From the NCBI GenBank assembly GCA_963760615.1, contig CAVXDX010000008.1:97459-161458 (forward strand): 64,000 nucleotides of DNA. Direction: 5' to 3'. A program made the translations under genes and the position numbers. Position 1 is the first letter of the stretch. The number at the start of each line of letters is the position of its first letter. Below the pieces are notes generated by a model. That model worked only from the letters and a program-made list of their open reading frames with translations, was not told the origin of the DNA and did no database searches. Positions 8,280 to 42,636 of the stretch are shown here, one piece after another. Origin of the DNA: an uncultured Candidatus Micrarchaeota archaeon (GTDB lineage Archaea > Micrarchaeota > Micrarchaeia > Burarchaeales > Fermentimicrarchaeaceae).

Positions 8280-8349
8280 GGTTAGATTATGGCTTTTTCG
8301 ATATTTAAGCTTGTTCGATTAACACCGGCAAATCGTAACTTTCGGTTAT

Positions 8350-8363
8350 GTAACCATGGTTAC
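8350..8363. promoter_or_regulatory. perfect 14-bp palindrome GTAACCATGGTTAC upstream of ORF 7269..8279
   Basis: Exact palindrome; identical copy at 11628-11641. Confidence 0.6.
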
Positions 8364-8373
8364 ATCTAACCTC

Positions 8374-11622: not shown

Positions 11623-11627
11623 GCTTT

Positions 11628-11641
11628 GTAACCATGGTTAC
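11628..11641. promoter_or_regulatory. perfect 14-bp palindrome GTAACCATGGTTAC abutting the TATA box of ORF 10639..11589
   Basis: Exact palindrome 8 nt upstream of TATA (ATATTTAAG at 11611-11619). Confidence 0.6.
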
Positions 11642-11721
11642 ATTCTCCGCCAAATCTCATCTTCGCTTTGGTATTAGCCTGTTTCTCGGCAGATTTAAAT
11701 ATCAGAAATGGCGTAATTTAA

Positions 11722-21659: not shown

Positions 21660-21738
21660 ACTCTTGAATACCCTTATTTAAATTTGTAGCGGTAGGTTAG
21701 TGTTTTAAATTTGCTATATCAGAAGTATTAGAGTGCGT

Positions 21739-21813
21739 GGGCCCGTAGCGCAGCCTGGATAGCGCGGCAGTTTCCTAAACTGTAGGTCGTGGGTCCAAAT
21801 CCCACCGGGCCCG
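21739..21813 (+). tRNA. tRNA-Arg (anticodon CCT)
   Basis: Acceptor GGGCCCG/CGGGCCC, D-stem GCGC, anticodon loop TTCCTAA, T-arm GTGGG-TCCAAAT-CCCAC. Confidence 0.8.
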
Positions 21814-21823
21814 TTGTGGAAGC

Positions 21824-22502: not shown

Positions 22503-23836
22503 GTGACATGCTCCACCCCTAAAGGGTGTGGGCTTCCTGCTTCACAGACGTTGCTACTGCAACATCTCTCTCCTTTTGCAAGGAATTGCAGGCGTTACTT
22601 CCCCCTTGCCCAGGGGTAGCTCTCATGAGTATATTGCGTGCAGCATTCAAGTCTCTGTCTATTAACAAACCACAATTGGGGCAGGCATATATCCTGTCTC
22701 CGAGACTCAAGTCGTCCCTGATGTTTCCGCACCTGCTGCACATCTTTGAGGTATTTTCAGGGTCTACAAACACCACTCTGCATCCAGCTCCCTCCGCCTT
22801 GTATGCAAGCATGTTTGCAAACATACTCCATCCTGCATCATTGATGAACTTGCCGTAATGCTGCTCTGACATTTCTTTTGAGGCAAGTCTTTCTGATGCT
22901 ATGAAGGAATAATCATTCACCAAATCAGTTGTTGCCTTATGTAAGAAGTCTCTTCTTGTGTTGGCCACCTTCTCATGCAGTTTTGCTACTCTTACCTTTG
23001 CCTTCTTTCTGTTGCCGCTTCCTTTCTTTTTCTTCGAGAACTTTCTTTGTATGAAGGCAAGCCTATCCTCATGCTTCATGAGGTGTCTTGGGTTTTTTAT
23101 CATTTTGCCATTTGAGAGAGTTGCAAATGTCTTCAATCCCAGGTCTATACCTACTGCCTCTCCCCCGTTTTCTCGTGGAATCTTTCCAAGTGTCTCAACA
23201 GTGAAAATAGCAAACCATTTTCCTGAAGACTCTCTTTTCAGAGTCAGGGTTTTGATTCTGCCTTTTATCTCTCTGTGCTTATTTACTGCAATCTCACCAA
23301 AAGGAGTCACTGTGAGTTTCTTATCCAGAGAGAAGCCAGACCCATACTGCGGATAGTACAAGCTCTTCATCCTGTCAATTGATTTGAAGCGAGGGAAACC
23401 ACATTCCACTCCTTTTCTTCTCAGCTTGAAAACTCTCGTTACTGAATTATAAACTCTATGTGCAATCTCCTGCTGGGTTTGGGAATAGAGACCACACTCT
23501 TTTACCATCAGCTGTAGCGTATTCTTAGTTGGGAAGTAGCCAAAGTCTTTGTAGGTTTGTTTGCAGTGCTCCAGAAGCTCATTCCACATGTTCTTTGCTA
23601 TCCAAATATGCTGAAACATCTCCTTCTCCTGCTTCTTTGAGGGATATATCCTGAATTTGTAGGCTCTCATAGACGTTATTTATGTCTATTTTTCCCTTTA
23701 TAAACCTCTGGGAGGGGTAACTTTCCAGTGAAAGTTATATATACTGGAAGAGCTAAATTTTCCCTTATGGTTCGCTTTCATCCCACCCTTAAAAGGTGTG
23801 GGATTTCCCGCTCACGTTGTTAAATAATAGAATGTA
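22503..23836 (-). mobile_element. IS200/IS605-family TnpB-only insertion sequence (IS1341-like, non-autonomous)
   Basis: tnpB ORF flanked by two similar ~40-nt hairpin segments in the same orientation (22511-22553 and 23772-23815); TTAC on the tnpB strand next to the left end (~23833); no tnpA. Confidence 0.6.
22519..23670 (-). CDS. tnpB: TnpB (IS605 OrfB) RNA-guided endonuclease
   Basis: 383 aa; MRAYKFRIYP N-terminus, RuvC-like blocks, C-terminal CSRCG...CPNCG zinc finger. Confidence 0.85.
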   Translation of the reverse strand: MRAYKFRIYPSKKQEKEMFQHIWIAKNMWNELLEHCKQTYKDFGYFPTKNTLQLMVKECGLYSQTQQEIAHRVYNSVTRVFKLRRKGVECGFPRFKSIDRMKSLYYPQYGSGFSLDKKLTVTPFGEIAVNKHREIKGRIKTLTLKRESSGKWFAIFTVETLGKIPRENGGEAVGIDLGLKTFATLSNGKMIKNPRHLMKHEDRLAFIQRKFSKKKKGSGNRKKAKVRVAKLHEKVANTRRDFLHKATTDLVNDYSFIASERLASKEMSEQHYGKFINDAGWSMFANMLAYKAEGAGCRVVFVDPENTSKMCSRCGNIRDDLSLGDRIYACPNCGLLIDRDLNAARNILMRATPGQGGSNACNSLQKERDVAVATSVKQEAHTL

Positions 23837-30379: not shown

Positions 30380-33300
30380 ATGGCCGAGGATATATCCCTC
30401 ATAGTTGACGACTTCGAGAAGTTCTTCGATACTTTCTGTAAGGAGGAGATTGAGACGCTCCTAGAGAGGTATCCCGAGAAGAGAAGCCTGGAAGTCAGCT
30501 ACGGGGAGCTGAGCAGGTACAGCAGCAAGACTGCGGACAACCTGCTGAACAAGCCCGATGCGTACATAAAGGCTGCGGAAAATGCATTGAAGGCGATGGC
30601 AATGCCTTCCCAGTACGAGGTGCCCTTCGAGCCCCACGTGCGCTTCTTTAACTTGCCTGAGCAGAGCAGGCCCCTGATTCAGGACATTGGCGCGGACCAT
30701 GTAGGCAAGCTCATCTGCATTGACGGTCTGATAACCAAAAGGACGGAGATAAGGCCGAAAGTTAAAGTTATGGAATTGAAGTGCCCGTACTGCGAGCATG
30801 TGGAGAAAATTCCTGTTGAGAGGAACACAGTCATACCGGAAACCTGCTCAAACTGCAAGAGAAAAGGCCTGCAGCACGATGAGGAGGAGTCACGATTCGT
30901 AAACTTGCAGAGGGCTGAGGCGCAGGAGCCTCTTGAGAGGACAAGGGGAGGCGCACAGGCCAGCCACATTGAGGTGTGGATGGAGGATGATTTGGTCAAC
31001 ACAATCAGCCCAGGGCAGAGGGTTGAGGTAACTGCTGTTCTGAGGATAAGACCGTTCAACGAGTCAAGGGGGCAGAGCTCAAGAACAGTCTATTCAAAAT
31101 ACCTTGATGCCGTGCACCTCAAGAGGGTTGAGAAGGAGTTTGAGGAGGTGGACATCAGCAAGGAGGATGAGAAAATTATACTTGAACTCTCAAAAGATGC
31201 CAATTTGTACAAGAAGATTGTGGGCTCAATTGCGCCTTCCATATACGGGCATGATGAGGTTAAGGAGGCGCTGGGCCTGCAGCTCTTCGGGGGAACTCCG
31301 AACAAAATGCTCTCTGATGGGGGGCATATAAGAAGCGATATACATGTGCTCCTCATAGGTGACCCGGGAGTGAGTAAAACCCGCTTGCTGCAGTACATAA
31401 CGAACCTTGCTCCCAAGAGTATATATGTGAGCGGTAAGGCAGTGACATCCGCCGGTTTGACTGCAACTGCCGAGAAGGATGAGCTTGGCGATGGCGGATG
31501 GACCCTGAAGGCAGGGGCGCTTGTCCTTGCATCCGGTGGTCTTGCAGGCATAGATGAGTTTGACAAGATTAAGGATGAAGAAGTAGCAGCAATGCACGAG
31601 GTAATGGAAAGCCAAAGTTACCACCCACAAACCAAGTTGATGTTCGCTGATGGCAGGGAGAGACAGATCGGAGAATTTGTTGAAGAGTTAATGCTTTCAG
31701 ATTCTAGGGATGTAATTAAGGGTAAGGACTGCATGATTCTTAGACCTAAATACGAGTATAGAGTGCTCACAACTGATTTTAGTAGAATTTATAGCACTGG
31801 GATAAGTCAAGTAAGCAAGCATAAGGCACCGGATTATTTCATCAGAGTGAAGCTCCAGAGCGGGAGGGAACTTTTGGTAACTCCCGAGCACCCATTCTGG
31901 GTTATTGAGGACTGCGATGTGAAGACTGTTGATGCTGAGAAGCTGAGAGGGGGAGAGTTTATTCCAATGCCTAAATATCTCCCAGTTGAGCATGAAGAGG
32001 ATGGGTACAGCAAGGAGTTTTACAGATTTCTGGGTTATCATATAACCGAAGGAAGCTATGAGCTTAACAGAGGAGTGAAGAATGGGATAAACTTCACGAA
32101 CAAAAACCAAGAGCTTGTGGACGATTATGTTGATTTAACTAGTGGAATATTCGGCTCCAAATGTTACATCCAAGAGGATAAGAGGAGTGGCGTAACAAAT
32201 GCAAGAATAATATCTATGCCAGTTGTAAGGTATCTTTCTTCAATCGATTCAAATTTGCTTAGCAAGGGGGTTTCCAAGAACCTGCCAGACCGGTTCCTTG
32301 GCGCTAGTGATGAGAAAATAAGAGAGTTTCTGAAGGCAACATACGAGGGTGATGGATCATTTAGCAAGAATACGGTAAGCCTGGTTTGTGAGAACCATAA
32401 GTTTGTTGAACAGATTCAGACACTACTGCTTAGGTTTGGCATCAGGTCGCATACGTTCAAGGATGGAATTGTCTATAGGATAACAATCAATGGGGAGGAA
32501 AATCTCAGAACCTTCTATGAGAAAGTGGGCTTCATTTCTAATGAGAAAAATTCTAAGCTCTTGGGGTATTTGAGAAAGGAAAAATCGTATAGAACAGTCA
32601 CGGATGTTATACCGAATTCCGGGAAGAAGGTATACAAGTTGCTCAGGGAACTCAAAATACACAGCAGTTATATACTCTCTTCATCGTTGACGACTAATTT
32701 CTCGAATAAACACAATTTCACCAGAAGAAGTTTTGAGAAGATTGTTTGCAGGATGAACGAGAAAATTGCTGCCATAAGAGAGGCTATTCCAAGCGTGGAA
32801 AGGGCAACATCAATTAATGAGCTGGTAAGGATTAGAAAATCCCTTAACTTATCCCAAAGTGACATTTCTGGAAGGGATGAGAGATTACGGCATCTCGTCT
32901 CCTACTACGAAATCAAAAATACGCAAATTGAGAGGTGCAGGAAGCTTCTGATGGAATGCTGCATGAAGAAACTGGAGGCTGAAAGAGAAGTCGATAGGCT
33001 GGGAAGGCTTGCGCAAAGCGATATCAGATGGTGCAAGGTTGTCTCTGTTGATAAAGTTGAGAATGAGAATATTGAATGGGTTTACGATGTTGCAGTTGAG
33101 CCAACTAAAGCATTCGTATCAGAGTGCGCCGTGCTGCACAACAGCGTCTCAGTTGCGAAGGCGGGTATAGTCGCAAAGTTTAAGGCCAAGACATCCATAC
33201 TCGCAGCAGCAAACCCCAAGTTCGGAAGGTTCGACCCAATGGGGTATCCTGCGGACCAGTTTGATATTCCTCCTACAATACTCTCAAGGTTTGACTTGAT

Positions 33301-33982
33301 TTTCCCAATAAAGGATATTCTTGATGAGGAGAAGGACAGGAAACTTGCGAGCTTCATACTTGACCAGCACACAGCTGCGGGAAAGAGGGTTGAGAAGACC
33401 ATAACCGAGGAGGAGGAGATAAGGCCGCCCATAGAGGCGGATATGCTCAGAAAGTACATTGCCTACGCGAGGAGGAGAATTTCGCCTGTTCTGACTCCGG
33501 AAGCCAGCGACAAGATAAGGGAGTATTACGTTGAGCTGAGGAGGATTGGCGCTACGCAGGGCGCAGTCCCCATAACCCCGAGGTATATTGAAGGAATGGT
33601 GAGGCTTGCAGAGGCAAGTGCTAAGGTAAGGCTAAGCAAGAGGGTGGAGCTGGCAGATGCTGAGAGGGCGATAAAGCTCATGGACTTCATGCTCAAATCA
33701 ATAACAATGGACAAGGGGCTGGGCAGAATAGACATAGATATAATAACGACAGGCCAGCCAAAGTCAAAAGCAGACAGAATAAGGAATATAATTGACATAG
33801 TGAAGGAGCTTGAGAAAGAATATGACTTGGTTGAGATTGAGAAGGTAGTTGAGGAGGCAAAGAAGTACGGGCTCGATGAGACAACAACAAGAAGGATGAT
33901 TGACGAGATGCTTAGGAAAACAGGGGAGCTGTACGAGCCAAAGCACGGGCATGTGAAGGTTGTTAGGCCGAAGGTGGAGTGA
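30380..33982 (+). CDS. mcm: MCM replicative helicase containing a LAGLIDADG intein
   Basis: 1200 aa; N-terminal Zn finger CPYCEH...CSNCK, Walker A LLIGDPGVSKT, Walker B IDEFDKI, arginine finger SRFDL; ~509-aa insertion with intein blocks. Confidence 0.9.
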   Translation: MAEDISLIVDDFEKFFDTFCKEEIETLLERYPEKRSLEVSYGELSRYSSKTADNLLNKPDAYIKAAENALKAMAMPSQYEVPFEPHVRFFNLPEQSRPLIQDIGADHVGKLICIDGLITKRTEIRPKVKVMELKCPYCEHVEKIPVERNTVIPETCSNCKRKGLQHDEEESRFVNLQRAEAQEPLERTRGGAQASHIEVWMEDDLVNTISPGQRVEVTAVLRIRPFNESRGQSSRTVYSKYLDAVHLKRVEKEFEEVDISKEDEKIILELSKDANLYKKIVGSIAPSIYGHDEVKEALGLQLFGGTPNKMLSDGGHIRSDIHVLLIGDPGVSKTRLLQYITNLAPKSIYVSGKAVTSAGLTATAEKDELGDGGWTLKAGALVLASGGLAGIDEFDKIKDEEVAAMHEVMESQSYHPQTKLMFADGRERQIGEFVEELMLSDSRDVIKGKDCMILRPKYEYRVLTTDFSRIYSTGISQVSKHKAPDYFIRVKLQSGRELLVTPEHPFWVIEDCDVKTVDAEKLRGGEFIPMPKYLPVEHEEDGYSKEFYRFLGYHITEGSYELNRGVKNGINFTNKNQELVDDYVDLTSGIFGSKCYIQEDKRSGVTNARIISMPVVRYLSSIDSNLLSKGVSKNLPDRFLGASDEKIREFLKATYEGDGSFSKNTVSLVCENHKFVEQIQTLLLRFGIRSHTFKDGIVYRITINGEENLRTFYEKVGFISNEKNSKLLGYLRKEKSYRTVTDVIPNSGKKVYKLLRELKIHSSYILSSSLTTNFSNKHNFTRRSFEKIVCRMNEKIAAIREAIPSVERATSINELVRIRKSLNLSQSDISGRDERLRHLVSYYEIKNTQIERCRKLLMECCMKKLEAEREVDRLGRLAQSDIRWCKVVSVDKVENENIEWVYDVAVEPTKAFVSECAVLHNSVSVAKAGIVAKFKAKTSILAAANPKFGRFDPMGYPADQFDIPPTILSRFDLIFPIKDILDEEKDRKLASFILDQHTAAGKRVEKTITEEEEIRPPIEADMLRKYIAYARRRISPVLTPEASDKIREYYVELRRIGATQGAVPITPRYIEGMVRLAEASAKVRLSKRVELADAERAIKLMDFMLKSITMDKGLGRIDIDIITTGQPKSKADRIRNIIDIVKELEKEYDLVEIEKVVEEAKKYGLDETTTRRMIDEMLRKTGELYEPKHGHVKVVRPKVE
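31616..33142 (+). other. intein (509 aa) with LAGLIDADG homing-endonuclease domain, within MCM
   Basis: Block A SYHPQTKLMFADG...IGEFV; block B LVTPEHPFWV; LAGLIDADG-like FLGYHITEGS and FLKATYEGDGSF; C-terminal HN followed by Ser; exteins rejoin as HEVMESQ|SVSVAKAGI. Confidence 0.75.
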
Positions 33983-35268: not shown

Positions 35269-35559
35269 ATGCCTGAAGAAGCTGAACCGTTTGCAAGGGT
35301 GAGACTGCCTAGGAAGGGAGAGGTGCTGGGAGTTGTCATAGGCATGATGGGTGCGAGCAGGATGCTTGTTGAATGCATAGACGGGAAGGAAAGGATGGTC
35401 AGGATACCTGGCAAGATAAAGAGAACAATTTGGGTGAAGTCTGGGGATGTGGTGCTTGTGAAGCCCTGGGAGGTTGAGGCTGACAAGAAGGCTGATTTGG
35501 TCTGGAGATACACCCGACTGCAGGCTGACTGGCTAAGAAGGGAAGGACATCTGAAGTGA
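35269..35559 (+). CDS. translation initiation factor aIF1A
   Basis: 96 aa; S1-like OB fold; RLPRKGEVLGVV...MLVEC..G...IPGK; 1-nt gap from the aIF2beta stop. Confidence 0.8.
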   Translation: MPEEAEPFARVRLPRKGEVLGVVIGMMGASRMLVECIDGKERMVRIPGKIKRTIWVKSGDVVLVKPWEVEADKKADLVWRYTRLQADWLRREGHLK

Positions 35560-35563
35560 GGGC

Positions 35564-36332
35564 ATGGCGAGGAGGCTCTCAACAAGGAAGAAACCTGACA
35601 GGGAGGACAAGCAGCTAAAGGAAAGGAAGAAGATTGAGTCTGACGTTTTTGACAGATACTCCATGCTCATTCTGGGGGGATTTTTGAATAGAAAAGTGCT
35701 TAAGAGTGTGGATTACCCAATAGCGAGCGGGAAGGAGGCTTTTGTCTTCCGCGCAACAGCAGGGGAGAAGTTCGACAGGGGTGAAGGTTACATTGCGGTG
35801 AAGATATACAAGGTTGAGACGAGTGATTTTACGAGGATGCAAGCATATATAACCGGAGACCCGCGCTTCCTTGGGGTGAAGAGGAACAAGAGCGACCTTG
35901 TCTATGCCTGGACGAGGAAGGAGTTCAGAAACTTGGAAATATGCGCGGATGCAGGGGTGCCTGCCCCTGAGCCTTACCTATTCAAGAACAATGTGCTGCT
36001 CATGCAGTTCCTTGGGGAGGAAGGGATTCCTGATTCTCCGCTTGTGGATGTGGGGAGCGACAACCCCGAGAAGGACTGCGGAGACTTTGCTGGGTGACAT
36101 AAAGAAGCTGTATGAGAAGGAGTTCGTTCATGCCGATGTGAGCGAGTTCAACGTGCTCATGCATGGGGAAGTGCCTTACCTAATAGACTGCGGGCAGGGA
36201 GTGCTGCTGGAGCACCCGAAGGCGGAGCAATTCTTGAGAAGGGATGTGGAGAACGTGCTGAGGTATTTCAGAAAGTACGGAGTGGAGAGGAATTTTGATG
36301 AAGTTATGAAGTGGGTGAAGGGCTCTGTATAA
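35564..36332 (+). pseudogene. RIO1-type serine kinase with a single +1 frameshift
   Basis: N-terminal half (35564..36097) carries the RIO N-lobe ISGKEAFVF, AVKIYK; catalytic VHADVSEFNVL and metal-binding IDCGQ are in the next frame (to 36332); shift at the CCCC run near 36064. Confidence 0.65.
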
Positions 36333-36389
36333 CTCGTTATACCTAATTATTTATAAACTCAAAATGAGTAAATATATCGGTGATAGCTT

Positions 36390-37097
36390 ATGGTCATAGT
36401 AAAAGTTCATGACGAGATCGCAAAACATCATGGGGGGGATACTGCTACATGGATCGACGAGATTAGGAGGCAGAAAGATAACGAGGGTATTAGGAAGAAA
36501 ATGCAGGAATTCGCAGAGAAGCACGGTTCAGATGTTAAAATGGTTGGTGGCCTAAGCGGTGCTTTGCTTGAGGGGTTCAAAAGGGTCAAGGACAACAATA
36601 CAAAAGCTACTTACGGCAGTGCAATGATTTATCTTGCTAAGAGCCTGAATGAGAGGGATGAGGAGCTTATGGGTAAGTTGGATGTTTTTAATAAGGCAGT
36701 TGAGGAAAAAGGCGGCACGGTTTGGGTTGTGAAGAGAGACACGAAGATTGGGGATATGATGAGCTTTTCCAGCGACTTGATGGGAATGGAGATTAAAAAG
36801 AATACCGATAATATGCTCTCAGTCAGGAATGGGGCGATTCCTGTGAAGGAAAACAGTGGAAAGGTCATTGCCGAGGAGACTGAGAAGTTTATGAAGTTGC
36901 TAATGAGCACGTATTACAGAAGCGGTTATGCGGTTGGGATTGAAAATATTATAACGGGCGTGACAAGCAACTTGGCTGTTTGGGGAGACGAAGTAAGAGA
37001 CGGAATTAATCGTGCAACTGCAGAAGCAGAGTCATTGGGGATAGATGTCAAAAAACTCGAACGCACGGCAACATTCAGCTCAGTAAAAGCAGAATGA
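36390..37097 (+). CDS. hypothetical protein
   Basis: 235-aa ORF; 5' flank AAAATGAGTAAAT...GGTGAT..TTATGG resembles those at 4113 and 5417. Confidence 0.45.
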   Translation: MVIVKVHDEIAKHHGGDTATWIDEIRRQKDNEGIRKKMQEFAEKHGSDVKMVGGLSGALLEGFKRVKDNNTKATYGSAMIYLAKSLNERDEELMGKLDVFNKAVEEKGGTVWVVKRDTKIGDMMSFSSDLMGMEIKKNTDNMLSVRNGAIPVKENSGKVIAEETEKFMKLLMSTYYRSGYAVGIENIITGVTSNLAVWGDEVRDGINRATAEAESLGIDVKKLERTATFSSVKAE

Positions 37098-38411: not shown

Positions 38412-39868
38412 ATGGAAGAGGAAAAAGAATTGGAAAACGAAGTGAACGGAAGCGAGATTTTCAAGGAGTTCAGGGAGTATTCTGTTGTTGAGTTCTTCAA
38501 GAAGAACAGGCAGATGCTGGGCTTCGCAGGAAAAGTTAGGTCGCTTACAACTATTGTCCATGAATATTGTACCAACTCGCTTGATGCGGCGGAAGAGGCC
38601 CACATACTCCCGGAGATAATGATTAAGGTTGAAGAGTTGCCTGACGGGCACGTGAAGGTTATAATCCAGGATAACGGGCCAGGCATACCGGAGAGCCACC
38701 TGGGAAAGGCAATGGGCATGATGCTGGCCGGGACGAAGTTTCACAGGTATATGCAGCAGAGGGGGCAGCAGGGCATAGGAGGTGCGGGCTGCACCTTGTT
38801 CTCGCAGATAACAACGGGAAAAGCAACAAAAATGAGGTCTGGGCTGGGCGACGGCAAGGTGTACGAATGCGAGATGAAGATTGACGTGAAGAACAACCAG
38901 CCAGTAATAACAAACCAAAGCGAATTCATGGGAAACTTCAGAGGGTTGAGAATTGAGGCGGAGTTCGCGGAAGTGAAGTATGACAAGAGCGAGCACGGCG
39001 TGTATGAATACCTAAAGAGGACTGCCATGGCAAACCCTCATGCACAAATCACATTAATAGAGCCAACAGGGGAGAAGCACGTGTTCCAGAGGGCTTCTGA
39101 AAAAATCCCCGAGAAGCCTGCGGAGATACAGCCGCATCCGCTTGGAGTCACAACCGGGGATTTAGTTGACATAGCGCACAGGACTGATTCGAGAAAGCTC
39201 TCATCTTTCTTCGAGCAACGCCTTCTCAAGAGTGAGCTCTGCGAAGGTTGAGGAACTGGCGAAGCTTGTTCCCGCTGTTAATTTTGATAAGGCGCCAAAA
39301 GATTTGAAGTGGCCCGAAGCAGAGGCAATAGTGAACTCAATAAAGACTTTGAAGTGGATAGCCCCGCCGACAGACGCGCTGAGGCAACTGGGGGGCCCAG
39401 ATTTGAGAAGGCTCTGAAAAATATACTTGCTCCCTGAGTTCATACCATGAGCGAGAGAAAGCCAAAGGTGTTCAGGGGTGGAATTCCATTCATGGTGGAG
39501 GCTGCAATAGCCTACGGTGGAAATTCGGGAAGAGCCAAACCTGATGGAACAGAGGGGAGGGGATATCATAAGGTACGCAAACAGGGTTCCGCTCATGTTC
39601 GATGGAGGCTCGTGCGCAATAACCGAGGCCGTGAAGAATATTGACTGGAAGAGGTATGACATAAAGGATTTTGACAACGCGCCAGTCAGTGTTTTCACAA
39701 ACTTCCTCAGTTCATGTTCCTTACACCGGAACTGGGAAGCAGGCAATAACCATGGAGGATGAGATAGTAGAGGAGATAAGGTATGCAATAATGGAGGTTG
39801 CAAGGGATTTGCAGGTTTACCTGAGAGGGAAGATAAGGGAGATGGACAGGAACGCAAGAAGAAGATAA
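38412..39868 (+). pseudogene. top6B: topoisomerase VI subunit B, disrupted by five or more frameshifts
   Basis: GHKL/Bergerat ATPase N-terminus intact (38412..39251); the H2TH and transducer regions continue in frames +1, 0, +1, +2 (ORFs 39232.., 39447.., 39517.., 39671..), plus compensating indels near 39425-39445. Confidence 0.7.
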
Positions 39869-39870
39869 TC

Positions 39871-41171
39871 ATGAGGTATGTAAAGGAGCTCTCGAAGGAT
39901 TTGGCTGACCTTGCTGGAGAGAGCGCTCCAGCGGATATCGAGAAGAAGCTTGTGAATCTTGTTGAAAATGAGATCTGAGAAGATTGAAGGAGATGCCGAG
40001 GAGGCAGGAAAGGTTGAGAGGGTAAAGGAGGATGAGGAAGATGAAAAAGAAGAGTGACGAATCGGAGGTTCTGAAGAAGCTCGAGGGGCTTGGGAAGGAC
40101 ATGCTTAAGGAGATAGACACGGGTGAGGCTCCAACTTTCGAGTGCCTGCTAAGGAGCAGAGGGAATATACTGTTTGATGAAAACTTGGGTTACATAAAGC
40201 TTGGCGACAAGAGGGAAACCAGAACCTTCCTCAATGTTTGGGCAGGCAAAGAAGTTCATGCAGACCGTTGCGGTTGCTTCGAAATGCAAGAATAGCCTAA
40301 GGAGAATTCCCACACAGCATAAGAGGTTTATTCTACCAGCTCAAATTCACGCTTGGTGATAGTGTTGATGAGGATTTGTTCTCAGAGCAGAGCGAGAGCA
40401 ACCCTCTTGTAGAGGATTTGGAAGTTGCTTTGGATGTGAAGAGAGAGGATTTGAACCTCAATACAGACAGGAAGGGGGTTGTCGCTGGAAATTTGGTGCT
40501 CAGGGACAAGTTCGGAGGCGCAACAGATGAGATAGACTGCTCCAAGCAGGGGAGAAGCTAGGTAGTAGTTCCCAGCGATGTAGATAATGGAATGGATTTC
40601 GTGAGCGTGGATGCGGATTCGTTCTTGTTGTCGAGAAGGATGCTCTCTGGCAGAGGTTGAATGAGGATAAGTTCTGGAAGAAGGAGAACTGCGTGCTCAT
40701 AACTCCGAAGGGGCAGTCCTCAAGGGGATGCAGGAGGCTCATAAGGAGGCTGGCGGACAAGAACTGCCTGTATACTGCTTCACGGACTGTGATGCCTGGG
40801 GGTGGTACATCTACTGGGCAATAAAGACAGGAAGCATGAATCTTGCTTATTTGGGAAGCGACATTGCAACTCCCGAGGCGAGGTTCATTGGAGTCACAAT
40901 GAAAGACATAATGGATTATGATTTTCTGGGCAAGCTCACTATAAAGACAAAAGATGTTGATTTGAAGAGGGCTGAGGAGATGCTCACCTACCCCTGGATA
41001 ACTGCTCACAAGGAATGGGTGGAGGAGTTGAAGACTGTGCTTGCCACAAAGAAGAAGATTGAGCAGGATGCGCTGCAGGGGCCAAGGCTGTCTTTCGTTG
41101 GTGAGTATGTGAGGGAAAGATTAACAATAAGAAGTTCCTGCCCTAGAGGTTTAAATATTCAGCATTCCTAA
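39871..41171 (+). pseudogene. top6A: topoisomerase VI subunit A (Spo11-like), disrupted by four or more frameshifts
   Basis: Segments in different frames: 39871.. (N-terminus), 40032..40295 (FDENLGYIKLGDK), 40301..40561 (RGLFYQ...EDLEV..REDL...KGVVAG), ~40565-40725 (FVLVVEKDALWQRL), 40728..41171 (Toprim, CFTDCDAWG). Confidence 0.7.
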
Positions 41172-41182
41172 TCTTAGCTCAA

Positions 41183-41268
41183 GCCCCGATAGCTCAGTCG
41201 GTAGAGCGACTGGCTGTTAGGCAATTGCGGATACCAGTAGGTCGTCGGTTCAAGTCCGACTCGGGGCG
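41183..41268 (+). tRNA. tRNA-Asn (anticodon GTT) with 13-nt intron
   Basis: Acceptor GCCCCGA/TCGGGGC, D-arm GCTC-AGTCGGTA-GAGC, anticodon stem ACTGG/CCAGT with loop CTGTTA|A interrupted by GGCAATTGCGGAT, T-arm GTCGG-TTCAAGT-CCGAC. Confidence 0.75.
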
Positions 41269-42292
41269 CTACGGATTTTACGACGGAGAATGGGGGGATC
41301 CGAATACAGAAAAACGACTTGAACCTCCGTCGTAGCGCGGGTGCGACTCCCACCGAGTCCATAAGTTTTTATGCCCTCCTTGCAAAAGATAATCTGCGGG
41401 TGGTAGAATGAGTTGGAGCAAACTAATATTTTTTATGATTATCTTGTCCGTAATTCTTATTCCGACAACTTCTGCTACTCCTGCTTTCTACTATGTTATC
41501 TGTAACGTAACCATTTCAAAAGGAGTCAATGTTAATCAGAGCAACATAACTGTCAACCAATGTTTTGGATATTCTCCTTACAGTTCAACTTGTGACATAT
41601 CAACATTGAAAGATAGAATTCATACTAATATGACTTATACCATTAACAATGAATTTACTAAAGGTTTTTCAGTCGATAACACATCATCCATCCAAGAAGG
41701 AAATTACATTATTAAGGGGGGGTTTTGGGGAGGATTTTCAAGCATACAAAAAATAACGGACAATAGAAGCTTGGATGCAATCGCCCAGGAAGACTGCAGT
41801 AACTATGCGATTAACTCTTTCATAAATTCTGGAGAGATCTACCTCTTCTCGCCATTAATTCTATGCGTAGCATTTGCATTCATAAAAAAACCATCAAAGA
41901 AAATTAAATTTTTGAGCATAGATTGGAGAAAGTTGAGTCTTTGCTTTTTGCTGATGTTCACGCTTTTTATGGGATTTGAGTTTTTTTCTCTTGTTCCGAC
42001 AATTATTCCTTTTCCTATCAATTATCTCATTATACCGTTTGGAATAATTGGTTTGATTTTAGCAATCCCCGCGTTCATTGTTATATCGTTGTTTAGCGGT
42101 CGATCGGTACCCTTGATCAGTGAACAGTACCCTTGCAGTATATGATATATTTTATAGCGTTTTTCGTATACCCGCTATTTCTCTCCTTGGGAATTTTTTA
42201 TCTTTATGACAATGTGAAAGCTGGGGGTTCGAATGCACGGAAACCATAAGAACCACCGACGTGGTTCTTATACAAGTCCGACTCGGGGCGCT
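41251..42292 (+). mobile_element. remnant integrated element at the tRNA-Asn 3' end, bounded by 20-bp direct repeats
   Basis: CAAGTCCGACTCGGGGCGCT at 41251-41270 (tRNA 3' end) repeated exactly at 42273-42292; the intervening ~1 kb is markedly AT-rich and has one ORF; no integrase present. Confidence 0.55.
41408..42145 (+). CDS. AT-rich secreted/membrane protein (cargo of the tRNA-Asn insertion)
   Basis: 245 aa; N-terminal signal peptide, many NxS/T sequons, C-terminal hydrophobic helices; codon usage far more AT-rich than flanking genes. Confidence 0.5.
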   Translation: MSWSKLIFFMIILSVILIPTTSATPAFYYVICNVTISKGVNVNQSNITVNQCFGYSPYSSTCDISTLKDRIHTNMTYTINNEFTKGFSVDNTSSIQEGNYIIKGGFWGGFSSIQKITDNRSLDAIAQEDCSNYAINSFINSGEIYLFSPLILCVAFAFIKKPSKKIKFLSIDWRKLSLCFLLMFTLFMGFEFFSLVPTIIPFPINYLIIPFGIIGLILAIPAFIVISLFSGRSVPLISEQYPCSI

Positions 42293-42336
42293 TTTCTTTT
42301 GTGAGATTTTTAAAGGTTTATATGCAAAACTAACTC

Positions 42337-42636
42337 ATGGAATGCGGATACTGCCATACGGTTTCAAACGACCTCCCTTACAAATGCAAGTTCTGCGGGG
42401 GAACCTTCTGCTCCGAGCACAGGCTTCCAGAGAACCACGAGTGCCTGGGGCTGGAGAAGTTCAAGGATGTGAAGCACGATGAGTTCAGGGGAGGCGTTGT
42501 AAAGGCAGCAAAGGAGTATGATGAAAAGGTGAAGGCATACGAAAGCAGGGGGTTGGACACGCGGAAGCTTGCCCTGTACATTGTCATGCTGATAATAATT
42601 GCATTTATTGTCTATTACCTCTTGAAGCACATTTGA
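42337..42636 (+). CDS. AN1-type zinc-finger protein with C-terminal TM helix
   Basis: 99 aa; C-x-C...C-x2-C...C-x2-H...H-x-C pattern (CGYCH, CKFCGGTFCSEHRLPENHEC); hydrophobic C-terminus. Confidence 0.55.
   Translation: MECGYCHTVSNDLPYKCKFCGGTFCSEHRLPENHECLGLEKFKDVKHDEFRGGVVKAAKEYDEKVKAYESRGLDTRKLALYIVMLIIIAFIVYYLLKHI

What the first reader, a model, noticed from the sequence alone, without database searches (positions are those of the whole stretch)
41251..42292. 1-kb AT-rich insertion at tRNA-Asn flanked by exact 20-bp direct repeats
The last 18 nt of tRNA-Asn plus 2 nt (CAAGTCCGACTCGGGGCGCT) recur exactly 1,022 bp downstream. This is the classic attL/attR signature of integrase-mediated insertion into a tRNA 3' end. 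The enclosed DNA is conspicuously AT-rich and encodes only a 245-aa secreted/membrane glycoprotein-like ORF. No integrase remains, so this is a decayed or miniature integrative element or a defence-island stub.
Basis: seen in the sequence. Interest (0 to 1): 0.6.

Follow-up and report, generated by a model that had tools for sequence, protein, structure and literature searches.

The report
Mini gene cassette inserted at tRNA-Asn
A 1-kb piece of foreign, AT-rich DNA carrying one membrane-protein gene is inserted at the end of a tRNA gene in a tiny DPANN (Micrarchaeota) archaeon. It belongs to a small family of single-gene cassettes that carry no integrase and stack behind tRNA genes, each bounded by a copy of the tRNA's tail.

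Summary
CAAGTCCGACTCGGGGCGCT occurs exactly twice (41251-41270 and 42273-42292). It is the last 18 nt of an intact tRNA-Asn(GTT) plus CT. The DNA between the copies is the most AT-rich kilobase of the window.

Three sister Micrarchaeota lineages have the empty site: tRNA-Asn runs straight into the same zf-AN1 gene. So this is a true insertion.

The ORF is 280 aa in a near-identical assembly. The 245-aa reading comes from a 1-nt deletion in an error-rich stretch of the window.

Homologues of the cargo sit in the same kind of unit at other tRNAs:
- a tRNA-Leu locus with three exact copies of the tRNA tail separating two single-gene cassettes;
- a three-cassette array on another contig.

Two strain variants of the tRNA-Leu locus diverge exactly at the last base of a tail copy.

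Each tail copy is preceded by a conserved arm: a pseudo-T-loop exactly 39 nt upstream. The window insert is a composite. It holds a cargo-less arm remnant, an internal degenerate tRNA-Leu-like tail and the gene cassette.

No recombinase was found anywhere. The best reading is a non-autonomous integrative cassette moved in trans by site-specific recombination. The enzyme is inferred, not shown.

The parts
41183..41268 (+). Intact tRNA-Asn(GTT) with a 13-nt anticodon-loop intron; the integration target
   Evidence: ARAGORN; Rfam RF00005, 65.1 bits, full length
41251..41270 (+). Left copy of the 20-nt repeat (attL core): tRNA positions 56-73 plus CT
   Evidence: Exact match search; repeat finder D11
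41271..41292 (+). Left arm of a cargo-less 'A-type' unit (ACGGATTTTACGACGGAGAATG). The TTTACGACGG(R)AG motif also follows tRNA-Asn in L089, L008, L091 and L006/L090. A related GGAAGRATTTACAGGAG follows tRNA-Leu in L093/L094
41293..41344 (+). Arm module (a): G-rich run + TCC + GAAT (pseudo-T-loop, 41299-41305) followed by a 39-nt spacer. CTCCGTCGTA (41326-41335) pairs with TACGACGGAG (41279-41288)
   Evidence: Gap-free alignment of five arm units; spacer identities above the 99th percentile of shuffles; fold; model match 45.6 bits
41337..41361 (+). Internal degenerate tRNA-Leu-like 3' end (GCGGGTGCGACTCCCACCGAGTCCA: T-arm, acceptor 3' strand, discriminator A). It is not the tail of any tRNA in the window. 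It lies at the position of tRNA-Leu core2 in the homologous L094 array
   Evidence: homology with L094 starts exactly at 41345 = L094 906; 13/17 identity to the Leu core against 8/17 to the Asn core
41362..41407 (+). Cassette's own promoter-like region and leader (TAAG, TTTTTATG at 41366-41373, GGTGG before the ATG), conserved with the P0002 cassette
   Evidence: Sequence comparison of window and L002/L094; promoter function is inferred
41408..42249 (+). Cargo gene: a 280-aa protein with a signal peptide, a Cys- and N-x-S/T-rich beta ectodomain and about 4 C-terminal TM helices. In the window it reads as 245 aa because of a 1-nt deletion at 42125
   Evidence: AF2 model, pLDDT 53 overall and 65-82 for residues 28-135; no Pfam, PHROGs or PADLOC family; family is tiny
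42222..42273 (+). Arm module (b): GGGGG + TTC + GAAT (42228-42234) plus a 39-nt spacer. It overlaps the last codons of the gene and contains a perfect 11-bp hairpin (42246-42256 / 42261-42271)
   Evidence: I23; z -2.6; 51.3 bits
42273..42292 (+). Right copy of the 20-nt repeat (attR core)
42337..42636 (+). Chromosomal flank: the zf-AN1 gene that directly follows tRNA-Asn in the empty-site relatives
   Evidence: Pfam PF01428; synteny in L004, L005, L007, L008 and L089

Best explanation
The 1,022-bp unit is a horizontally acquired, non-autonomous integrative cassette inserted at the 3' end of tRNA-Asn(GTT) in a Micrarchaeota (Fermentimicrarchaeum-like) genome.

Shown:
- It is an insertion relative to sister lineages.
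- Its boundaries are two exact copies of the tRNA tail, running from the T-loop to 2 nt past the 3' end.
- Its composition is foreign.
- It has its own promoter-like region and one gene for a secreted, membrane-anchored protein.
- Homologous genes lie in equally small units, bounded by the tails of other tRNAs, that can stack in tandem.
- Each distal tail copy is preceded by a homologous ~52-nt arm with a pseudo-T-loop exactly 39 nt upstream.
- The window insert is a composite. It consists of a cargo-less 'A-type' arm remnant, an internal degenerate tRNA-Leu-like tail and a 'B-type' gene cassette, in the same order as the two-cassette tRNA-Leu array of L094.

Inferred:
- The unit entered as a circle by conservative site-specific recombination between an element-borne copy of the tRNA tail (attP: arm + core) and the tRNA gene (attB). 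This regenerated an intact tRNA (attL) and left arm + core as attR.
- The recombinase, most likely a tyrosine integrase, is supplied in trans by the host genome or another element.
- Repeated use of the tRNA site builds the arrays.

The cargo's function is unknown. My guess is a surface protein involved in cell-cell contact or exclusion.
For: Exact 20-nt repeat, 0 expected by chance. The tRNA is intact.

Empty sites: L004, L005 (84-89% DNA identity in topoVIA to the window for these three lineages) and L007 have tRNA-Asn followed by GCGCT and then the zf-AN1 promoter.

GC is 0.35-0.375 against 0.476, the lowest 1 kb of the window.

Second locus: in L094/L095 the tRNA-Leu tail GAATCCCGCCCGGTCCA occurs three times exactly, at 101, 906 and 1946. 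It separates a 197-aa-ORF cassette from the P0002 cassette, whose product is 71% identical to the window protein. L093/L096 are 99.6-99.8% identical up to the last base of the second copy and unrelated after it. Each variant was seen in at least 2 assemblies.

Third locus: in L092 the distant homologue P0003 sits in a three-cassette array with four copies of another tRNA tail, and the contig ends lie inside copies.

The window insert aligns to L094 at 79% identity starting exactly at the internal core.

The five arm units align without gaps. Spacer identities of 18-22/39 exceed the 99th percentile of shuffles (17). Even the unrelated pair c/d keeps 39 nt.

In L089 a cargo-less arm unit sits between tRNA-Asn and a second tail copy. 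That copy has A where the resident tRNA has G in the T-loop, so it matches the allele of other lineages. This suggests the second copy came from an incoming att site.

Short att sites (median 17 bp), tRNA targets and tandem arrays are documented for archaeal tyrosine-recombinase elements (PMC6563490).
Against: - No integrase or other recombinase was found in the insert, in 20 long ORFs of the window, in 10 kb downstream of the L094 array or in 12.8 kb of L093.
- No free or viral donor carrying the arm, the core or the protein was found in IMG/VR.
- A fixed-core integrase does not easily explain how homologous cassettes and arms sit next to the tails of three different tRNAs.
- It also does not explain why an Asn-flanked insert carries a Leu-like tail inside.
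- The cargo-less 92-bp unit of L089 is too small to have moved as a circle on its own.
- The arm + core unit was found only in these few lineages among 1.03 Mb of Micrarchaeota loci, so the sample is small.
Confidence: 0.6

Rival explanations
1. Decayed stub: a formerly larger, integrase-bearing integrated virus or plasmid at tRNA-Asn lost everything by deletion except one gene and the two att sites.
For: This is the commonest fate of archaeal integrated elements. tRNA fragments are normally left by 9-23-kb elements (PMC9897764). The insert does contain decay products: a cargo-less A-type remnant and a degenerate internal tail. No integrase is present.
Against: Three homologous cargo genes (P0001, P0002, P0003) each lie in 0.8-1.0-kb units tightly bounded by tails of three different tRNAs. 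Cores in the arrays are exact, and the strain breakpoint falls on the last base of a core. The arms keep a fixed architecture. Independent random decay would not leave the same minimal unit three times. No integrase fragment spans either junction: the ORFs crossing the att sites have no PHROGs hit.
Confidence: 0.22
2. Target-site duplication: a transposase- or casposase-like enzyme makes staggered cuts about 17-20 nt apart at tRNA 3' ends. The flanking repeats are then filled-in target DNA, not an element-borne att core. The internal Leu-like tail is an old duplication carried along when two adjacent units moved together.
For: The repeat always equals the local tRNA tail, while the adjacent arms are homologous between Asn and Leu sites. 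This model neatly explains a Leu-like tail inside an Asn-flanked insert. Casposons form tandem arrays at tRNA-Leu with repeated duplications (PMC6563490 citing Krupovic 2016; PMC4779613 listed).
Against: There are no terminal inverted repeats between the insert ends. No Cas1, PolB or transposase lies in or near any cassette. In L089 the second copy differs from the resident tRNA at a T-loop position and matches a foreign allele. Repeat length varies from 14 to 22 nt between loci.
Confidence: 0.1
3. Ancestral gene, lost from relatives by recombination between the 20-nt repeats.
For: The arm motif TTTACGACGG(R)AG follows tRNA-Asn in five of eight genus-level lineages. Part of the structure may therefore be old, and precise loss between direct repeats is possible.
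Against: The cargo gene occurs only in window/L001 among the fetched loci that cover this site. GC is 12 points below the genome. The homologues lie at other tRNAs in other organisms. Three non-sister lineages are empty.
Confidence: 0.05
4. tRNA gene duplication or pseudo-tRNA, or an assembly artefact.
For: None beyond the repeat itself.
Against: Only 18 nt of the tRNA recur. Neither ARAGORN nor Rfam calls a second tRNA. The same structure is present in a second assembly (L001).
Confidence: 0.02

Closest known systems
tRNA-targeting tyrosine-integrase integrative elements of archaea (SSV-type, pTN3/TKV-type, thaumarchaeal iMGEs)
   Same: Insertion at a tRNA 3' end, direct repeats made of the tRNA tail (17-20 nt, like the thaumarchaeal median of 17 bp; PMC6563490), regeneration of an intact tRNA, foreign composition, and tandem re-use of the site.
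   Different: No integrase, whole or split, in or next to the element. The size is 0.8-1.0 kb with one gene, against typically 9-23 kb or more (PMC9897764). A conserved arm with a pseudo-T-loop lies at a fixed 39-nt distance. Homologous units occur at three different tRNAs.
CIMEs (cis-mobilizable elements) and site-specific accretion arrays of streptococcal ICEs/IMEs (my own knowledge; papers listed but not read in detail)
   Same: att-flanked DNA without its own recombination module, tandem arrays with internal att sites, and presumed mobilisation by a recombinase encoded elsewhere.
   Different: CIMEs are bacterial, usually several kb, and demonstrably derived from a neighbouring ICE/IME family. 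Here no parent element is known and the units are single genes.
Integron gene cassettes
   Same: Single-gene units stacked in arrays, each carrying its own recombination site, with no recombinase inside the cassette.
   Different: No IntI nearby. The junction sequence is a tRNA tail, not an attC imperfect palindrome with R''/R' (GTTRRRY) boxes. The cassettes have their own promoters, and the platform is a tRNA gene rather than attI. The archaeal integron report does not mention Micrarchaeota (PMC9668308, 0 occurrences).
Casposons in tandem at tRNA-Leu (Methanosarcina)
   Same: Arrays at a tRNA 3' end separated by repeated copies of the target.
   Different: No Cas1, PolB or terminal inverted repeats, and the units are 10-20 times smaller.
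MITEs / non-autonomous transposon derivatives
   Same: The cargo-less A-type unit (left arm joined directly to right arm, about 72 nt in L089 and window 41271-41344) looks like an internally deleted derivative that keeps only its ends.
   Different: No inverted terminal repeats. The duplication is 17-20 nt of a tRNA rather than 2-10 nt of arbitrary target.

Membership tests
tRNA-integrating tyrosine-recombinase element (genomic island / provirus) | Inserted at the 3' part of a tRNA gene with the tRNA kept intact | tested here: met
   tRNA-Asn 41183-41268 is full length at 65.1 bits; the insert starts 2 nt after it
tRNA-integrating tyrosine-recombinase element (genomic island / provirus) | Flanking direct repeats that contain the tRNA 3' end (att core) | tested here: met
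   20/20 exact repeat, 0 expected by chance
tRNA-integrating tyrosine-recombinase element (genomic island / provirus) | Empty site in related genomes | tested here: met
   L004, L005 and L007
tRNA-integrating tyrosine-recombinase element (genomic island / provirus) | Integrase gene within the element, or split across its ends (SSV type) | tested here: not met
   The insert has one ORF with no Pfam or PHROGs hit. ORFs spanning the att sites have no PHROGs hit. No integrase domain in 20 long window ORFs
tRNA-integrating tyrosine-recombinase element (genomic island / provirus) | Excision and circularisation at the att sites | not testable with these tools
   Needs reads or experiments
CIME-like non-autonomous att-flanked element | Bounded by att sites and lacking a recombination module | tested here: met
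CIME-like non-autonomous att-flanked element | Cognate autonomous element with an integrase using the same att site exists | tested here: inconclusive
   None found in the window, the related loci or IMG/VR. Whole genomes could not be scanned
CIME-like non-autonomous att-flanked element | Tandem accretion with internal att sites | tested here: met
   L094/L095 have three exact cores and L092 has four cores. The window has an internal degenerate core at 41337-41361
Integron cassette | attC imperfect palindrome with R''/R' boxes at the cassette end | tested here: not met
   Junctions are tRNA tails preceded by the arm. No RYYYAAC...GTTRRRY pair is seen in the sequences
Integron cassette | IntI integrase and attI platform adjacent to the array | tested here: not met
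   The array starts at a tRNA gene, and no integrase was found in the sequence available
Casposon | Cas1 casposase, PolB and terminal inverted repeats | tested here: not met
   No such genes. No inverted repeat joins the insert ends
MITE / IS | Terminal inverted repeats and a short fixed-length target duplication | tested here: not met
   Repeats are 14-22 nt and tRNA-derived
Second tRNA gene / tRNA duplication | Cloverleaf-capable sequence at the second repeat | tested here: not met
   No tRNA is called at 42200-42300. Only positions 56-73 are present

The most novel reading that the evidence does not exclude
Some DPANN archaea may possess an undescribed integron-like gene-capture system. In it, single-gene cassettes with their own promoters are inserted and stacked behind tRNA genes. 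The cassette-borne recombination site would be a ~70-nt unit: a pseudo-T-loop, an exactly 39-nt spacer and a copy of a tRNA tail. The unit would be retargetable to different tRNAs (Asn, Leu and a third). The catalyst would be an unidentified recombinase encoded elsewhere. The system would supply variable surface proteins, and possibly defence genes, to reduced symbiont genomes.
Probability: 0.3. Interest if true: 0.75.

Novelty: new variant of a known kind. Interest (0 to 1): 0.55.

Why it matters
Mobile elements of DPANN archaea are almost unknown, and these organisms have tiny genomes that depend on cell-surface contact with hosts.

This locus shows that a Micrarchaeota lineage recently gained a secreted membrane protein through a 1-kb unit that carries no recombinase. 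Related units stack behind tRNA genes and differ between strains exactly at the tRNA-tail copies.

If the cassettes really are the mobile unit, this is a compact gene-capture platform built on tRNA genes. It would be comparable in logic to integrons, and it gives a defined recombination-site candidate (arm + core) that can be tested in vitro.

If it is only a decayed element, it is still a clean, dated example of gene capture at a tRNA in a DPANN genome.

Tried and rejected
- IMG/VR scans for donors all led nowhere. I scanned for the tRNA-Asn tail, the tRNA-Leu tail, the arm pattern, the left-arm pattern and the protein profile. The results were either chance hits in high-GC phages or nothing.
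- The cargo has no hit in Pfam, PHROGs or PADLOC. The all-protein HMMER search found only the cargo's own cluster plus one distant 182-aa relative.
- The AF2 model was poor (pLDDT 53). Foldseek against PDB and BFVD gave nothing with E<0.01, and the afdb50 library was unavailable.
- Arm plus tail as a split or intron-bearing tRNA 3' half: rejected. The pseudo-T-stem does not pair with the tail's T-stem in units b, d or L089, and there is no upstream tRNA body.
- Retro-element primer-binding site: rejected, because the copies are same-sense and lack CCA.
- RNA fold of the left non-coding region is no better than shuffles (z -0.03).
- A sequence model of arm + core found no further copies in 1.03 Mb of Micrarchaeota loci.
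- The homologue of the 197-aa cassette gene in L097 has no tRNA and no repeats around it, so that gene family is not always in a cassette.
- The shared 'KRHNLSM' N-termini of several window ORFs turned out to be a common promoter/leader sequence, not paralogy.
Full report
**1. The observation**

The 20-mer CAAGTCCGACTCGGGGCGCT occurs exactly twice in the window, at 41251-41270 and 42273-42292. No further copy appears even with three mismatches, and none was found in 100 shuffles. ARAGORN and Rfam both call a full-length tRNA-Asn(GTT) with a 13-nt anticodon-loop intron at 41183-41268. The repeat is therefore tRNA positions 56-73 (from the middle of the T-loop to the discriminator) plus CT. Nothing tRNA-like is called at the second copy.

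The DNA between the copies has 37.5% GC, and its ORF 35%, against 47.6% for the window. It contains the lowest-GC kilobase of the whole 64 kb.

**2. Organism and the ORF**

The flanks encode topoisomerase VI B and A upstream and a zf-AN1 protein downstream. TopoVI-A finds its closest relatives in Candidatus Micrarchaeota MAGs related to Ca. Fermentimicrarchaeum limneticum.

A Logan contig (L001) is 99.4% identical to the window over 16.7 kb and carries the same insert and repeats. There the ORF is 280 aa. In the window a 1-nt deletion at 42125 truncates it to 245 aa, and the last 40 codons continue intact in another frame to a stop at 42247-42249.

All 23 indels and 70 mismatches between the two assemblies cluster at 35.3-36.4 kb and 39.2-42.1 kb and also break the topoVI genes. 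The rest of the overlap is identical. The truncation therefore probably reflects a low-quality stretch of the window assembly, but I cannot prove that.

**3. It is an insertion**

Three lineages have tRNA-Asn ending ...GGGGCGCT followed within 46-64 nt by the conserved zf-AN1 promoter and gene:
- L004, 89% DNA identity to the window in topoVI-A;
- L005, 88%;
- L007 (F. limneticum Sv326), 84%.

In the window the sequence after the second repeat copy is that same promoter. The extra 1,022 bp lie exactly between the tRNA end and its copy.

**4. The cargo**

The protein has four parts:
- a signal peptide;
- a ~110-residue beta-rich ectodomain with conserved cysteines and six N-x-S/T sites;
- a basic stretch;
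- about four transmembrane helices.

It has no Pfam, PHROGs or PADLOC family. In 5.8 billion clustered proteins it has only one other cluster (P0002, 71% identity). An exhaustive HMMER search added one distant 182-aa relative (P0003, E 2e-8). The structure model is poor and fold searches are empty. Its function is unknown; a surface role is my inference.

**5. The same gene family sits in the same kind of unit at other tRNAs**

P0002 lies behind tRNA-Leu(CAA) in an uncultured archaeon with 46% GC in its core genes.

In L094 and L095 the tRNA-Leu tail GAATCCCGCCCGGTCCA occurs three times exactly, at 101 (the tRNA), 906 and 1946. The first interval holds a 197-aa membrane/zinc-ribbon ORF. The second holds P0002 with its promoter. 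Cassette GC is 32-38%.

L093 and L096 are 99.6-99.8% identical to L094/L002 from upstream genes through the tRNA and the first cassette, up to the last base of the second tail copy. After that base they are unrelated: a paralogue of the 197-aa ORF and a HinfI-like gene replace P0002, a third tail copy, GmrSD and an MmeI-like enzyme. Each variant occurs in at least two assemblies from different samples, so the tail copy is a genuine recombination junction.

P0003 (contig L092) sits in a three-cassette array made of P0003, an HD-domain protein and a 134-aa ORF. The array has four copies of another tRNA tail, two of them 22-nt exact, and the contig begins and ends inside copies. In all three homologues the cassette begins TA(A/G)G immediately after the tail copy.

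**6. Anatomy of the window insert**

BLAST of the insert against L094 gives 79% identity over 894 nt. The match starts exactly at window 41345, which corresponds to the first base of L094's second tail copy.

At that place the window has GCGGGTGCGACTCCCACCGAGTCCA (41337-41361). This is a degenerate T-arm plus acceptor strand that matches the Leu tail in 13 of 17 positions and the Asn tail in only 8 of 17. It is not the tail of any tRNA in the window.

Upstream of it, directly after the tRNA-Asn copy, lies ACGGATTTTACGACGGAGAAT followed by an arm. The same left motif, TTTACGACGG(R)AG + GGGG(A)GGGTTC, follows tRNA-Asn in L089, L008, L091 and, shortened, in L006/L090. A related GGAAGRATTTACAGGAG begins the 197-aa cassette at tRNA-Leu.

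The insert is thus homologous along its length to the two-cassette Leu array, with the first gene deleted. It is nevertheless flanked by Asn tails.

**7. The arm**

Five units share one architecture: a G-rich run, TTC plus four bases (a pseudo-T-loop), exactly 39 nt, then the tail copy. The five units are window a (41293-41361), window b (42222-42290), L094 c, L094 d and L089.

They align without a single gap. Ungapped spacer identities of 18-22/39 for a-b, b-d, a-c, a-L089 and b-L089 exceed the 99th percentile of shuffles (17). The pair c-d shares only 7/39 yet has the same length.

Unit b overlaps the end of the gene and contains a perfect 11-bp hairpin next to the tail copy. The pseudo-T-stem does not pair with the tail's T-stem, and there is no tRNA body upstream, so these are not tRNA halves. 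I read the arm as the element-side part of an attachment site with a geometric constraint. That reading is an inference.

**8. A cargo-less unit and a foreign allele**

In L089 the tRNA-Asn is followed by the left motif, the arm and a second tail copy only 92 bp away, with no gene. The second copy reads GTTCAAGTCC..., whereas the resident tRNA reads GTTCGAGTCC.... The A is the allele of the window, L004, L005 and L091 lineages.

This favours an incoming att site over local duplication, although a single later mutation cannot be excluded.

**9. Mechanism**

Several features fit conservative site-specific recombination of the tyrosine-integrase type:
- tRNA 3' targets;
- 17-20-nt cores starting in the T-loop;
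- regeneration of the tRNA;
- tandem re-use of the site, with the newest unit next to the tRNA.

This matches what is documented for archaeal elements (short att sites, tRNA targets, arrays: PMC6563490). It also accounts for the L093/L094 pair: the same 197-aa cassette inserted at tRNA-Leu in front of two different older contents.

No recombinase was found in the insert, in 20 long ORFs of the window (the only mobile-element gene seen is a TnpB at 22522-23679), in 10 kb after the L094 array or in L093. No donor was found in IMG/VR. The enzyme must therefore act in trans and remains hypothetical.

Two facts strain the fixed-core integrase model: homologous arms next to the tails of different tRNAs, and a Leu-like tail inside an Asn-flanked insert. 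A target-duplicating enzyme would explain both. However, there are no terminal inverted repeats or transposase genes, and the L089 allele argues against it.

I rank the explanations as follows:
- non-autonomous cassette moved in trans: 0.6;
- decayed stub of a larger element: 0.22;
- target duplication: 0.1;
- ancestral gene lost from relatives: 0.05;
- tRNA duplication or assembly artefact: 0.02.

**10. Comparison and novelty**

The unit works like a tRNA-integrating element but fails the defining test of carrying an integrase. It works like a CIME or an integron cassette but has neither a known parent element nor attC/IntI.

Typical archaeal integrated elements that leave tRNA fragments are 9-23 kb (PMC9897764). 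I found no description of single-gene, integrase-less cassette arrays separated by tRNA tails in Micrarchaeota or other DPANN in the literature searches. That is absence of evidence within a partial library.

I classify it as a new variant of a known kind. The sample is small: about three host lineages. The arm + core unit was not found elsewhere in 1.03 Mb of Micrarchaeota loci. Interest is moderate at 0.55.

Noticed in passing
window 35300-36400 and 39200-42130: Compared with the 99.4%-identical contig L001, all 23 single-base indels and 70 mismatches cluster in these stretches. They break topoisomerase VI B and A and the cargo ORF into fragments, while the rest of the 16.7-kb overlap is identical. 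This looks like a low-quality stretch of the window assembly rather than pseudogenes.
   Followed up: partly
window 22522-23679 (-): IS200/IS605-type TnpB (OrfB_IS605 + Cas12f1-like TNB + HTH) next to tRNA-Arg(CCT) at 21738-21814. It is the only recognisable mobile-element gene among the 20 window ORFs scanned.
   Followed up: no
window 41183-41268; L004, L005, L006, L007, L008, L014, L089, L090, L091: The tRNA-Asn intron is polymorphic within one genus. There is a 13-nt anticodon-loop intron in window/L001 (also in the more distant L014), none in L004, L005, L008, L089 and L091, and apparently two introns in L006, L007 and L090, which ARAGORN miscalls as tRNA-Ser.
   Followed up: no
L006 2190-2840: A LAGLIDADG-like ORF is inserted between topoVI-A and tRNA-Asn in this lineage only. 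Downstream of its tRNA-Asn the synteny is also broken: isopentenyl phosphate kinase and UbiD/UbiX-like genes replace zf-AN1.
   Followed up: no
L008 7193-7860; L091 (reverse strand) after the tRNA-Asn: Other lineages carry different cargo after the same left-arm motif at tRNA-Asn: a 668-bp segment with a CBS-domain gene (L008, no second tail copy) and a class-I methyltransferase gene (L091). The tRNA-Asn 3' flank is a hotspot of variation in this genus.
   Followed up: partly
L094 2466-10250: Immediately after the three-core tRNA-Leu array lies a defence-type island: GmrSD, an ASCH/EVE-domain pair, an MmeI-like methyltransferase-endonuclease, an HSDR_N protein and an HTH-CBS regulator. No integrase appears within the contig.
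   Followed up: partly
L050 10257-10378: In a more distant Micrarchaeota-like MAG, the end of tRNA-Glu plus 29 nt of flank (38 nt exact) is repeated 84 bp downstream with no gene in between. This is another small tRNA-tail duplication, of a different form.
   Followed up: no
L072 7071-7252: A 79-nt exact tandem direct repeat (starts 7071 and 7174) lies right after the topoVI-A gene.
   Followed up: no
window 8349-8365 and 11627-11643: The 17-nt sequence TGTAACCATGGTTACAT, which contains a perfect 16-nt palindrome (TGTAACCATGGTTACA), occurs twice. Each copy lies upstream of an uncharacterised gene with the common TTTAAATA...GGCATAATCT leader, so it may be a shared regulator site.
   Followed up: no
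window 30380-33979 (+): A 1200-aa MCM helicase containing an intein with a LAGLIDADG domain, according to the precomputed Pfam hits for the identical gene in L001.
   Followed up: no
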